IMG/VR virus record: IMGVR_UViG_2634166457_000003
Location: 1 to 18,720 of that record
DNA: 18,720 nt
Source: a virus
Lineage: Duplodnaviria > Heunggongvirae > Uroviricota > Caudoviricetes
Strand: one strand, 5' to 3'
The position numbers were made by a program, and so were the translations under genes. Below, one piece after another: positions 1,517 through 15,698 of this stretch (positions within the stretch are counted from its first letter, which is position 1; every line of letters starts with the position of its first letter). The notes beneath the pieces were generated by a model. The model saw only the letters and a program-made list of their open reading frames with translations, ran no database searches and was not told the DNA's origin.

Positions 1517-1979
1517 TTCTCAATCTCTCGATGGCGCAGTGCAGCAGATGCCAGTTGTTCAGGCTGACGTATAAAGTATAAATAAACTGGTTCCAGTGTA
1601 AAGCCCCCACCTTAATGGAATAAAAACCAAACAACAGATTGCTGGGATACAAACAACGCTTATTATTAAAAGCGGTTAAACAAATTAAATTTTAATGTTA
1701 TGCAAATTTGTCAGATCACCATAATATCTCATTTGAAAACCGCTGAAATAACAACCCTATCAGGGTTAATCATATTAAGGTGAGTAAATATGGAAAACAA
1801 CAAATCTGCACATTACGTTCCTTTTTTATCCGTAATACTTTTTGTTTTATGCTGTGCGTGGGCATTATTTTTATAAAAATATTTACAGATGAAGTAAACC
1901 CGCCAATCAGGTTAACTGTGGCTGCGTTGAGGATGCATAATACATCAGAGGTTGCGGGGATTTCTCCCCGCTGGTCCTC

Positions 1980-2135
1980 TTACTCCCCAAGTTCGTAAGC
2001 TGTGAAGACAGCGACCTCCGTCTGGCCGGTTCGGATTCGTACCTCGCAGAGGTCTTTCCTCGTTACCAGTGCCGTCACTATGACGGTTAAACAGATGACG
2101 ATAAGGGCGATTAACATCGCCTTTTGCTGCTTCAT
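1980..2135 (-). CDS. Hok/Gef-family type I toxin, 51 aa (HokD/RelF-like)
   Basis: MKQQKAMLIALIVICLTVIVTALVTRKDLCEVRIRTGQTEVAVFTAYELGE: single transmembrane helix plus the conserved C-terminal CE.R.R....EVA..YE motif of the Hok family. AAGGAG sits 9 nt upstream of the ATG. The track ORF 1980..2192 is an in-frame upstream extension of it. Confidence 0.75.
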   Translation of the reverse strand: MKQQKAMLIALIVICLTVIVTALVTRKDLCEVRIRTGQTEVAVFTAYELGE

Positions 2136-2393
2136 AGCCTGCTTCTCCTTGCCTTTCGGCACGTAAGAGGCTAACCTACATTTGCTAGACATAGATTGGG
2201 CCTCAGATTAATGTTAAGCGTCTTGCAGGACGCGTAATGTTAACTGGGGCTTTTCTCTATCTGCCGTTGGTGGCATGCCCGAGGCAGATAGCCTCAAGCA
2301 CCCGCTGCAATTCTACTTAACTCTTCTTTTCCCGCAAACCGTTTTTATCCAGCACAGCAAATAGCCGCATTAAGCCAATGTTGTTCATTGTGT

Positions 2394-2573
2394 TTACCGC
2401 CAGTATTCAATACAAATGACCGCCATGAATACCCCTACAAAAAGCGCACTTATATGTCCAAATATTAATGTCAAGACATCAACTTCCTCCATCTCCTCCG
2501 CTGTTGCGATGATAGGTATACATGATGCAAACAACCAGATTGCAACAAATAAAAACTGCAATGTCTTTTTCAT
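2394..2573 (-). CDS. Small two-helix membrane protein, 59 aa, hypothetical
   Basis: Start trimmed to ATG (MKKTLQFLFVAIWLF...) preceded by GGGGGA; two hydrophobic helices separated by an acidic loop (TAEEMEEVD). Confidence 0.4.
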   Translation of the reverse strand: MKKTLQFLFVAIWLFASCIPIIATAEEMEEVDVLTLIFGHISALFVGVFMAVICIEYWR

Positions 2574-2688
2574 TATTCCCCCGACAATCAATGAGTAATA
2601 ACATTTAAACATAGATTGACATAATCAGACATAAAAATATCTGGCTGCACATTTTGCTTACATCGTGTTATAGGGAAGATTAAAAAAT

Positions 2689-15322: not shown

Positions 15323-15517
15323 ATGCGGTATGAAAAAGTCAAACCATGTCCATTTTGTGGTTGTTCATCAGTAACGGTGAAAGCCATTTCAGGATATTAC
15401 CGAGCGAAGTGTAACGGATGCGAATCCCGAACCGGCTATGGTGGAAGTGAAAAAGAAGCACTCGAACGATGGAATAAACGAACCTCTGGAAATAATAATG
15501 GAGGTGTTCATATATAA
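15323..15517 (+). CDS. ralR: RalR (Lar), 64 aa; type I toxin with DNase activity and restriction-alleviation role
   Basis: Start trimmed to MRYEKVKPCPFCG...; Cys-rich motif CPFCGC...CNGC; matches the recalled K-12 RalR sequence and length. Confidence 0.85.
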   Translation: MRYEKVKPCPFCGCSSVTVKAISGYYRAKCNGCESRTGYGGSEKEALERWNKRTSGNNNGGVHI

Positions 15518-15698
15518 AATTACCGCCACTATTGAAAAGGAAGGAGGCACTCCTACTAACTGGACAAGATATTCAAAATCTAAACTAACGAAATCAGAAT
15601 GCGAAAAAATGCTCTCAGGTAAAAAAGAAGCAGGCGTTTCCAGAGAGCAGAAAGTAAAACTGATAAATTTTAATTGCGAGAAACTTCAGTCCTCATGA
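15498..15698 (+). CDS. ydaC: YdaC-like small protein, about 66 aa
   Basis: ORF overlapping the ralR 3' end in another frame; start uncertain (ATG at 15498 or 15438, neither with a clear Shine-Dalgarno); position matches ydaC of K-12 Rac. Confidence 0.5.
   Translation: MEVFIYKITATIEKEGGTPTNWTRYSKSKLTKSECEKMLSGKKEAGVSREQKVKLINFNCEKLQSS

What the first reader, a model, noticed from the sequence alone, without database searches (positions are those of the whole stretch)
1950..2393. Hok-family type I toxin locus embedded in the nin-like region, with predicted RNA regulatory structures
A 51-aa Hok/Gef-family toxin with a strong Shine-Dalgarno lies between the cargo genes and the nin/Q genes, as hokD does in the Qin prophage, but without an upstream relBE. 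Hok loci normally carry a cis-antisense Sok-type RNA over the leader and 5'/3' fold-back elements. Candidate structures here are a GCGGGGA-TTTC-TCCCCGC hairpin at 1954-1971 (9 nt past the hok stop), a 9-bp inverted repeat CTATCTGCC…GGCAGATAG at 2268-2300, and a GCGTC…GACGC hairpin at 2218-2233 flanked by duplicated AATGTTAA. The in-frame upstream extension (to 2192) may correspond to a mok-like coupling frame.
Basis: partly seen in the sequence, partly recalled or inferred. Interest (0 to 1): 0.6.

Follow-up and report, generated by a model that had tools for sequence, protein, structure and literature searches.

The report
Prophage hok/mok/sok toxin–antitoxin locus
This is an ordinary, complete copy of the well-known hok/mok/sok module (a small membrane-killing peptide held in check by an antisense RNA), about 92-93% identical in DNA to the experimentally studied hokW-sokW locus of Shiga-toxin phages, and it sits in a Rac-type prophage.

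Summary
The minus strand from about 2338 to 1892 carries a full hok/mok/sok type I toxin-antitoxin locus. Hok is 51 aa (Pfam HOK_GEF 3e-23; PHROG 'MokW-like host killing' 8e-32). An in-frame 70-aa Mok frame starts at 2192. The leader matches Rfam RF01794 at 117.6 bits (threshold 59). A 71-nt Sok-like antisense RNA lies on the + strand at about 2184-2254, and its promoter hexamers and spacer are identical to those of sokW. The locus is about 92-93% identical to mokW/hokW/sokW of phage 933W/Sp5, which has been shown experimentally to be a working type I TA system (PMC8621323). Similar DNA occurs in 4724 of 5426 complete E. coli genomes. Across 40 loci from several genera, the 5' 'tac' element pairs alternately with a 3' 'fbi' element, an upstream box and a metastable partner, and the pairings covary. 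They are the tac stem (true coordinates 2257-2265/2283-2291), the tip of the Sok/Sok-target stem, and the 3' protective hairpin. The one peculiarity is an fbi/terminator allele that weakens the fold-back, but it is identical in at least 112 E. coli genomes. Already known; low interest.

The parts
2310..2338 (-). Putative hok promoter: -35 TTTGCG (2338-2333), 17-nt spacer, -10 TAGAAT (2315-2310). The inferred +1 is G2303.
   Evidence: Read. The hexamers are identical in 933W hokW. +1 is placed at the first position of the Rfam model. Not mapped experimentally, and below the threshold of the consensus scan.
2292..2303 (-). tac (translational activator) element, GGGUGCUUGAGG, at the 5' end of hok mRNA.
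   Evidence: Pairs alternately with fbi, ucb and a metastable partner. U4/C4 covaries with A/G in fbi (UA 29, CG 7) and in the metastable partner (UA 31, CG 8) across 40 loci.
2272..2285 (-). Metastable partner of tac (a 13-bp hairpin in the nascent transcript).
   Evidence: MFE fold. 88.6% of cells paired, against 29-52% when the partner columns are slid; 3 pairs change on both sides.
2257..2291 (-).
   Evidence: First hairpin of the Rfam model. 97.2% paired with compensatory changes.
2244..2252 (-). ucb (upstream complementary box / anti-SD), AAGCCCCAG. It pairs with tac (open form) or with the mok SD region (closed form).
   Evidence: tac/ucb is 99.3% paired over 40 loci but shows no variation. 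Complementarity to CUGAGGC (2205-2199) is 6 bp plus one C.A mismatch, read from the sequence.
2208..2243 (-). Sok-target stem-loop of hok mRNA. Its tip is the GCGTC...GACGC hairpin (2233-2218), a 16-18-nt extension absent from the Rfam consensus and from hokC-type loci.
   Evidence: Insertion relative to the model. Present in 16 of 40 loci, with compensatory changes.
2201..2204 (-). mok Shine-Dalgarno, GAGG.
   Evidence: Invariant in 40 loci. Pairs with dcb GCCUC (2171-2167), 100% paired.
1980..2192 (-). mok-like reading frame (70 aa), in frame with hok.
   Evidence: 62/70 residues identical to the annotated MokW. The same 19-codon in-frame extension is present in 27 of the 39 loci scored in alignment A2.
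1980..2135 (-). hok toxin gene (51 aa, MKQQKAMLIALIVICLTVIVTALVTRKDLCEVRIRTGQTEVAVFTAYELGE). SD AAGGAG at 2150-2145.
   Evidence: Pfam HOK_GEF 3e-23. PHROG 251 'MokW-like host killing' 7.9e-32. 46/51 identical to HokW and 49/51 to K-12 HokD.
1954..1971 (-). 3' stem-loop (7 bp, GAAA loop) directly after the stop codon. Predicted 3' end and protector of the processed, translatable hok mRNA.
   Evidence: 95-98% paired with compensatory changes over 40 loci. Role taken from the R1 system (PMC9841398).
1920..1932 (-). fbi (fold-back inhibitory element), CCUCAACGCAGCC, complementary to tac. This allele has G where 37 of 40 loci have C.
   Evidence: The tac/fbi duplex is -17.2 kcal/mol here and -25.6 in the nearest relatives. 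Enforcing tac/fbi costs only 0.7 kcal/mol relative to the MFE.
1897..1913 (-). Weak terminator-like hairpin (AACCUG-AUUGG-CGGGUU) followed by an interrupted U tract. Predicted 3' end of full-length hok mRNA at about 1892.
   Evidence: Not called by the terminator scan. Relatives carry a better hairpin, AACCCGC-UUCG-GCGGGUU, plus a U run.
2149..2177 (+). Sok promoter: -35 TTGCCT (2149-2154), 17-nt spacer, -10 TAACCT (2172-2177).
   Evidence: Identical to 933W/Sp5 sokW. The promoter-less sokW mutant of Takada et al. replaces exactly this -10 (primers YO-421/422).
2184..2254 (+). Sok-like antisense RNA (about 71 nt): a 14-nt single-stranded 5' tail, a long imperfect hairpin, and GGGGCUUUU at the 3' end.
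   Evidence: Ends transferred from the sokW annotation. Fold of the 79-nt stretch 2184-2262 is -32.5 kcal/mol, z = -5.42; the 71-nt RNA folds at -29.5 kcal/mol. 64/71 identical to SokW, with 6 of the 7 differences in the 5' tail. The same architecture appears in all 40 loci.

Best explanation
The region is a complete hok/mok/sok type I toxin-antitoxin module of the prophage hokW/hokD subgroup, and it most likely works like the R1 hok/sok and Sp5 hokW-sokW systems.

Proposed mechanism:
1. A weak promoter (2338-2310, minus strand) makes a stable hok mRNA of about 410 nt.
2. While the transcript is nascent, its 5' tac element is held in a metastable hairpin.
3. In the full-length RNA, tac pairs with the 3' fbi element (1932-1920), which keeps the mok ribosome site closed.
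4. Slow 3' trimming back to the hairpin at 1971-1954 frees tac to pair with ucb. This opens the mok Shine-Dalgarno and the Sok target.
5. As long as the unstable 71-nt Sok RNA (+ strand, about 2184-2254) is being made, it binds the leader across the mok start, blocks mok translation (and so the coupled hok translation), and marks the duplex for RNase III.
6. When Sok synthesis stops, Hok (51 aa) is made and depolarises the inner membrane.

Shown here: sequence homology, the presence and covariation of every RNA element, intact reading frames, and identity of the Sok promoter with a functional one.

Inferred: transcript ends, toxicity, processing, and the biological role. By analogy with hokW-sokW, the role is probably Hok production on prophage induction. 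The module is co-directional with the Rac-type early-right operon, so read-through could silence the Sok promoter.
For: - Family hits: Rfam RF01794 at 117.6 bits (gathering score 59), E = 1.2e-26, full length, on the hok-sense strand. Pfam HOK_GEF 81.6 bits. PHROG 251 'MokW-like host killing' 7.9e-32.
- Homology: about 92-93% DNA identity to 933W, where mokW, hokW and sokW are annotated.
- Components against 933W: the Sok promoter -35, spacer and -10 are identical, Sok is 64/71 identical, Hok 46/51 and Mok 62/70.
- Experiment on the homologue: hokW-sokW has a toxic HokW, a neutralising sokW, partial dependence on RNase III and Hfq, and loss of sokW with HokW production on induction (PMC8621323).
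- Covariation on 40 loci from Escherichia, Shigella, Kluyvera, Citrobacter, Pseudocitrobacter, Photorhabdus, Erwinia and Kalamiella: tac/fbi, tac/ucb, the tac/metastable partner, the tac stem, mok SD/dcb and the 3' hairpin are 83-100% paired, against 29-52% for slid controls. Position 4 of tac covaries with two different partners.
- Sok architecture is conserved in all 40 loci.
- Folding: z = -5.4 for both RNAs. Enforcing tac/fbi costs 0.7 kcal/mol.
- Element definitions are taken from PMC9841398.
Against: - No expression or toxicity data exist for this allele.
- The fbi carries a G where the 37 other intact loci have C. This gives the weakest tac/fbi duplex among the 38 loci with an intact fbi (-17.2 against -18.5 to -27.6 kcal/mol).
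- The terminator hairpin and its U tract are degraded relative to close relatives.
- The unconstrained MFE fold did not itself choose tac/fbi.
- Neither promoter passes the simple sigma-70 consensus scan.
- The NCBIfam Hok models score below their cut-offs (48.8 against 73).
- Chromosomal hok loci tested earlier did not mediate post-segregational killing (cited in bioRxiv 10.1101/2025.08.07.668861).
Confidence: 0.88

Rival explanations
1. The locus is a decaying, non-functional relic, like most chromosomal hok loci of E. coli K-12. The ORF survives, but regulation (and perhaps expression) is broken by the mutated fbi and terminator.
For: There is a unique G.G mismatch at an otherwise invariant tac/fbi pair, shared only with the visibly disrupted loci L014 and L044. 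The terminator is weakened. The same 3' allele occurs attached to a truncated hok pseudogene in FDAARGOS_497. K-12 hokA, hokC, hokD and hokE are reported to be inactivated (PMC12214031).
Against: Both reading frames, both promoters, tac, ucb, the mok SD, dcb, the Sok hairpin and the 3' hairpin are intact and match the functional hokW-sokW locus. The tac/fbi duplex (-17.2) is only 1.3 kcal/mol weaker than in the intact hokC-type group (-18.5). The exact 3' UTR allele is at least 99% identical in 112 complete E. coli genomes, including ones with an intact hok. That pattern argues for a tolerated, circulating allele rather than recent damage.
Confidence: 0.12
2. The module is active, but its role is prophage stabilisation by post-segregational killing of cells that lose the Rac-type prophage, not help with lysis on induction.
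For: This is the classic role of hok/sok on plasmid R1, and the 933W record carries the curator's note 'prophage maintenance'. The architecture of a stable mRNA and an unstable antisense RNA is fully conserved.
Against: Chromosomal hokA, hokB and hokC loci did not mediate post-segregational killing. For hokW-sokW, the only phenotypes measured were faster growth arrest and a two-fold higher phage yield after induction. Nothing in the sequence distinguishes between the possible roles.
Confidence: 0.25
3. The module acts as an abortive-infection defence of the lysogen against other phages. Host transcription shut-off by an infecting phage would deplete Sok.
For: R1 hok/sok reduces T4 plating efficiency (cited in PMC8621323). 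Prophage regions next to the nin and Q genes often carry defence cargo, and in FDAARGOS_497 a P-loop ATPase of the Sll1717 family occupies the position next to the hok remnant.
Against: hok genes are not enriched near defence systems (section heading; discussion). There is no direct test for the hokW/hokD group.
Confidence: 0.15

Closest known systems
mokW/hokW/sokW of Stx2 phage 933W / Sakai prophage Sp5 (AF125520; Takada et al. 2021, PMC8621323)
   Same: About 92-93% DNA identity over the transcript. Same gene layout with an in-frame 70-aa Mok. Identical Sok promoter. The same extended Sok hairpin with the GCGTC tip, and the same tac, ucb, mok SD, dcb and 3' hairpin.
   Different: - The Hok C-terminus differs (…FTAYELGE against …FVDYESEK).
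- Six substitutions lie in the 5' recognition tail of Sok and the start of mok, so cross-neutralisation is uncertain.
- fbi reads GCAGCC instead of GCACCC.
- The 3' flank and terminator are different.
- The position in the phage genome differs: here the locus lies just upstream of the ninB-like / YbcO / Q-like genes of a Rac-type prophage, whereas in 933W it lies near attR.
Full-length 'hokD' loci of Qin-like and Rac-like E. coli prophages (for example HKUOPY1, E203449, MEI003)
   Same: HKUOPY1 is nearly identical from the -10 of the hok promoter to beyond the terminator, including the fbi allele, and has the same downstream DUF1367-DUF1364-DUF1133 genes. E203449 and MEI003 are 89-91% identical over the locus.
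   Different: The variable block at the mok start / Sok 5' tail differs between alleles. RefSeq annotates only the Hok CDS in these genomes, not mok or sok.
hokD (relF) of E. coli K-12, downstream of relBE in Qin
   Same: The Hok protein is 49/51 identical, and the 3' UTR is homologous.
   Different: K-12 hokD homology starts only at window position 2149, 14 nt before the hok ATG. It therefore has no hok promoter, tac, ucb, Sok target, mok start or Sok -10. The window locus has all of these.
hok/mok/sok of plasmid R1 (the paradigm; Rfam RF01794; PMC9841398)
   Same: The same set of elements and alternative pairings: tac/fbi, tac/ucb, a metastable hairpin, mok SD/dcb, a 3' stem-loop, and a Sok RNA with a 5' tail plus a terminator hairpin.
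   Different: DNA similarity to IncF-type plasmid loci is limited to about 75 nt around the mok start and hok SD, at 78.7%. HokW is only 44% identical to R1 Hok (PMC8621323). From my own recollection of the R1 sequence, R1 mok is out of frame with hok, whereas here it is in frame. The Sok hairpin here is about 18 nt longer.
hokC (gef)/mokC/sokC-type chromosomal loci
   Same: About 75% DNA identity over the whole transcript, an in-frame 19-codon Mok, and the same tac and fbi.
   Different: They lack the GC-rich extension of the Sok-target hairpin, so Sok is about 52 nt rather than 71 nt. Hok is 50 aa.

Membership tests
[quoted passage not shown] | Small (about 50 aa) Hok/Gef-family membrane toxin. 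| tested here: met
   Pfam PF01848 at 81.6 bits against a cut-off of 22. PHROG 251 at 7.9e-32. The NCBIfam Hok subfamily model scores only 48.8 against a cut-off of 73.
[quoted passage not shown] | Structured hok mRNA leader matching the curated covariance model. | tested here: met
   RF01794 positions 1-157 of 157, 117.6 bits against 59, on the hok-sense strand. The model consensus ends at the hok AUG.
[quoted passage not shown] | Overlapping mok frame with its own SD upstream of hok. | tested here: met
   ATG at 2192 with GAGG 8 nt upstream. The 70-aa frame is 62/70 identical to the annotated MokW. The position is conserved in 40 loci, and the frame relationship varies.
[quoted passage not shown] | cis-encoded antisense Sok RNA whose promoter lies inside the 5' part of mok and which is complementary to the leader. 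| tested here: inconclusive
   At the sequence level this is met. The promoter is identical to that of the functional sokW, and the RNA has a 5' tail, a hairpin and a U tract with z = -5.42, conserved in 40 loci. Transcription itself cannot be shown with these tools.
[quoted passage not shown] | Long-range 5'-3' fold-back (tac/fbi). | tested here: met
   In the window, 11 of 12 positions pair, with one bulge. There is covariation across 40 loci (UA 29, CG 7, UG 2 at tac position 4). In the window the pairing is weakened by one G.G mismatch.
[quoted passage not shown] | Alternative pairings of tac (ucb in the open form, a metastable hairpin in the nascent RNA) and a mok SD/dcb stem. | tested here: met
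   99.3%, 88.6% and 100% of cells paired. Slid controls give 29-52%.
[quoted passage not shown] | 3' processing to a truncated, translatable mRNA that ends at a protective stem-loop. | not testable with these tools
   The stem-loop is present and covaries. Processing itself needs Northern blots or RACE.
[quoted passage not shown] | Toxicity of Hok and its neutralisation by Sok. | not testable with these tools
   Shown for the homologue hokW-sokW (PMC8621323), not for this allele.
relBE-hokD (K-12 Qin) arrangement | hok placed directly downstream of relE without its own leader. | tested here: not met
   The window has the full leader, and no relBE lies upstream. K-12-type loci share homology only from position 2149.

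The most novel reading that the evidence does not exclude
Hok production in this prophage may be wired directly to induction by transcriptional interference. hok is co-directional with the Rac-type early-right operon, and no intrinsic terminator was detected upstream of it. Derepressed early transcription would therefore run head-on into the Sok promoter and shut it off. In 933W the equivalent read-through would come from PL across attP after excision. This would explain the unexplained RecA-dependent loss of SokW. The widespread fbi/terminator-weakened allele seen here could then be a tuned variant whose hok mRNA opens faster, rather than a decaying one.
Probability: 0.2. Interest if true: 0.45.

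Novelty: already known. Interest (0 to 1): 0.1.

Why it matters
It matters little beyond correct annotation. The window carries a textbook type I toxin-antitoxin module, and its close homologue has already been characterised. The practical points are these:
- RefSeq-style annotation of such loci records only the Hok CDS, so mok, Sok and the RNA elements mapped here would otherwise go unannotated.
- The Rfam family named 'sok' actually matches the hok-sense leader, which can mislead strand assignment.
- Alleles differ mainly in the Sok 5' tail / mok start and, in this case, in fbi. These are the positions that should decide cross-talk between the several hok copies in one genome and the kinetics of activation.

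Tried and rejected
- Unconstrained MFE folding of the 419-nt transcript did not return the tac/fbi fold-back. I therefore relied on comparative pair counts and on a constrained fold, which lies 0.7 kcal/mol above the MFE.
- The simple promoter/terminator scan found neither the hok promoter, the Sok promoter nor the hok terminator. The promoters were placed by homology with sokW and hokW and by the published promoter-less sokW mutant.
- The NCBIfam Hok and HokA models are below their cut-offs, so they were not used for membership.
- I considered that the 1954-1971 hairpin might be the transcription terminator or the fbi, and rejected both. No U tract follows it, and the tac complement lies 22 nt further downstream.
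- I considered that the weakened fbi might be a private mutation or a sequencing error, and rejected that. The 116-nt 3' UTR is at least 99% identical in 112 complete genomes, and all 12 hits listed are 100% identical.
- I considered that the Rfam hit on the minus strand means Sok is encoded there, and rejected that. The model consensus contains the hok SD and ends at the hok AUG.
- The plasmid search gave only a 75-nt match to IncF-type hok/sok loci, so I made no direct nucleotide alignment with R1.
- I did not run the large protein-database, structure-prediction or metagenome searches. They were not needed.

Full report
**What is there.** The minus strand has an ORF at 2192..1980 (70 aa). 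Its last 51 codons, from ATG 2135, read MKQQKAMLIALIVICLTVIVTALVTRKDLCEVRIRTGQTEVAVFTAYELGE. The protein matches Pfam HOK_GEF (81.6 bits, cut-off 22) and PHROG 251 'MokW-like host killing' (7.9e-32). The NCBIfam Hok models stay below their cut-offs. A scan of the whole window against Rfam gave two hits. One is RalA at 15516-15694. The other is RF01794 'sok' at 2303..2130 on the minus strand, covering the full model length at 117.6 bits against a gathering score of 59. That model's consensus contains the hok Shine-Dalgarno and ends at the hok AUG. The hit is therefore the hok mRNA leader in the sense orientation, not Sok itself.

- The hairpin at 1954-1971 is exact: 7 bp with a GAAA loop, -15.2 kcal/mol, z = -5.05.
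- The 9-bp inverted repeat exists but lies at 2257-2265/2283-2291, not 2268-2300. Chance expectation is 0.10 matches in the window. It is the core of a 20-nt imperfect inverted repeat.
- The in-frame extension to 2192 is correct.

**Relatives.**
- The locus is about 92-93% identical to phage 933W and the other Stx phages. In 933W the same stretch is annotated mokW (213 nt, in frame with hokW), hokW, and sokW, a 71-nt antisense RNA.
- Similar DNA occurs in 4724 of 5426 complete E. coli genomes, with a median of 2 places per genome. It is usually annotated only as 'hokD' or 'Hok/Gef family protein'.
- The window as a whole is a Rac-type prophage next to ttcA. It carries intR, xisR, ralR, recT, recE, kilR, sieB, racR and ydaS-V, about 95% identical to E. 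coli strains.
- hok lies just upstream of the ninB-like DUF1367 gene, the YbcO/DUF1364 gene and the Q-like DUF1133 gene, and has the same orientation as the early-right operon.
- K-12 relB-relE-hokD shares homology only from window position 2149 downstream. It therefore lacks the whole leader. The window locus is the full-length form.

**Anatomy by homology and folding.**
- hok promoter: -35 TTTGCG (2338-2333), 17-nt spacer, -10 TAGAAT (2315-2310), with +1 at about G2303. The hexamers are identical in 933W.
- Sok promoter on the + strand: TTGCCT (2149-2154), 17-nt spacer, TAACCT (2172-2177). It is identical to that of sokW. The published promoter-less sokW mutant replaces exactly this -10 (primers).
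- Sok RNA: transferring the sokW ends gives an RNA at 2184-2254. It has a 14-nt open 5' tail, a long imperfect hairpin and GGGGCUUUU at the 3' end. The 79-nt stretch 2184-2262 folds at -32.5 kcal/mol with z = -5.42, and the 71-nt RNA folds at -29.5 kcal/mol. The 'duplicated AATGTTAA' copies pair with each other in Sok through UUAA and two G.U pairs.
- Comparison with SokW: 64 of 71 positions are identical, and 6 of the 7 differences fall in the 5' recognition tail.

**Comparative test.** A scan of GTDB species representatives with the Hok peptide returned 53 loci. Thirty-six of them, plus three loci taken from GenBank/RefSeq records (933W, E203449, MEI003), had the whole transcript and were aligned with the window (alignment A2). 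The 40 loci come from Escherichia, Shigella, Kluyvera, Citrobacter, Pseudocitrobacter, Photorhabdus, Erwinia and Kalamiella. Pair counts support every element of the R1 model as defined in PMC9841398:

| Element | Cells paired | Note |
|---|---|---|
| tac/fbi | 83% | The core six pairs are 93-100% paired (three are invariant G-C/C-G). Position 4 of tac gives UA 29, CG 7, UG 2 |
| tac/ucb | 99.3% | No variation |
| tac / metastable partner | 88.6% | Position 4 gives UA 31, CG 8 |
| mok SD/dcb | 100% | |
| 3' hairpin | 95-98% | Compensatory changes |

Sliding the partner columns drops pairing to 29-52% in every case. One tac position covarying with two different partners is the signature of the hok refolding switch. 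All 40 loci also encode a Sok-like RNA with a variable 5' tail, a hairpin and GGGGCUUU(U/C). The GC-rich extension of that hairpin is present in 16 of them, including the window and 933W. The 19-codon in-frame Mok is present in 27 of the 39 loci scored. In the others the mok ATG is out of frame. This fits a role for mok in translational coupling rather than through its peptide.

The true fold-back element (fbi) is CCUCAACGCAGCC at 1932-1920. The 1954-1971 hairpin corresponds to the stem-loop that ends and protects the processed, active mRNA in R1 (PMC9841398).

**What is peculiar here.**
- The window's fbi reads GCAGCC, whereas 37 of 40 loci have GCACCC or GCGCCC. The only other exceptions are two visibly disrupted loci.
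- The tac/fbi duplex is -17.2 kcal/mol. That is the weakest among the 38 loci with an intact fbi (range -18.5 to -27.6) and 8.4 kcal/mol weaker than in its closest relatives.
- The terminator hairpin (1913-1897) has a G.U pair and an interrupted U tract, and the terminator scan does not call it.
- The fold-back is still within 0.7 kcal/mol of the MFE.
- The exact 116-nt 3' UTR is at least 99% identical in 112 complete E. coli genomes, and all 12 hits listed are 100% identical. In HKUOPY1 it sits behind an intact hok with an intact leader. In FDAARGOS_497 it sits behind a truncated hok pseudogene.
- It is therefore a circulating allele, not fresh damage. Whether it changes the kinetics of activation is unknown.

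**Mechanism and role.** By homology the module should work as in R1 and Sp5. A stable, self-locked hok mRNA is slowly trimmed at its 3' end and refolds. Sok then blocks mok translation, and with it the coupled hok translation, and triggers RNase III cleavage. Hok is made when Sok synthesis stops. For hokW-sokW, toxicity, neutralisation by sokW, partial dependence on RNase III and Hfq, RecA-dependent loss of sokW on induction, and a two-fold higher phage yield were shown experimentally (PMC8621323). hok genes are known to be enriched in prophages (bioRxiv 10.1101/2025.08.07.668861). I infer, without a test, that sense read-through from the derepressed early operon could silence the Sok promoter. 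Two observations are behind this. In the window, hok is co-directional with the early-right operon and no intrinsic terminator was detected upstream. In 933W, hokW is co-directional with PL across attP.

**Verdict.** The locus is a member of a described and experimentally characterised group, so it is already known and of low interest. The remaining uncertainty concerns whether this allele is active and what its biological role is. What the locus is, is not in doubt.

Noticed in passing
window 1790-1876 (+): An unannotated 28-codon ORF (MENNKSAHYVPFLSVILFVLCCAWALFL) with an SD (TAAGGTG), convergent with hok. It ends about 20 nt from the hok terminator hairpin. It stays open at exactly 28 codons with 71-100% aa identity in E. 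coli MEI003 and E203449, and in induced phages vB_EcoS-683R6 and 666R9, where hok is not adjacent. There is no Pfam, NCBIfam or PHROG hit. It is probably a real small membrane protein.
   Followed up: partly
window 15516-15694 (-), overlapping the + strand ORF 15438-15698: RalA sRNA (Rfam RF02694, 219.4 bits against a gathering score of 170), antisense to ralR. This is a second type I toxin-antitoxin system in the same Rac-type prophage.
   Followed up: no
window 1992-1998 (-), Hok codon 47: UUACGAA around the Tyr47 codon. TACGAA is invariant in all 40 aligned hok loci. This is the TadA A-to-I editing site (Tyr to Cys at position 46) reported for hokC, hokD and hokE mRNAs (PMC12214031), so this Hok is probably recoded in part to a two-cysteine form.
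   Followed up: partly
window 2394-2612 (-): A 72-aa hydrophobic ORF directly upstream of the hok promoter. It has 75-76% aa identity in two other hok-bearing prophages (L002, L006), is degraded in a third (L004), is unannotated and has no family hit.
   Followed up: partly
A2 columns about 110-135 (window about 2197-2175): The only hypervariable block inside the otherwise highly conserved leader is the mok start / Sok 5' tail, which is the Sok recognition region. This fits diversification to limit cross-talk between the several hok copies found in one genome (median 2, up to 9 places per genome).
   Followed up: partly
L057 (E. coli FDAARGOS_497) 212-2506: At the same prophage position, the 5' half of hok and its whole leader are replaced by a P-loop ATPase gene of the Sll1717 family. 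A hok pseudogene remains, carrying the same 3' UTR allele as the window. This looks like cargo exchange at this spot.
   Followed up: no
window 1752-1768 (-): The only terminator-like site the scan called on the hok strand lies about 130 nt beyond the weak hok terminator. Read-through hok transcripts would then be antisense to the 28-codon ORF.
   Followed up: no
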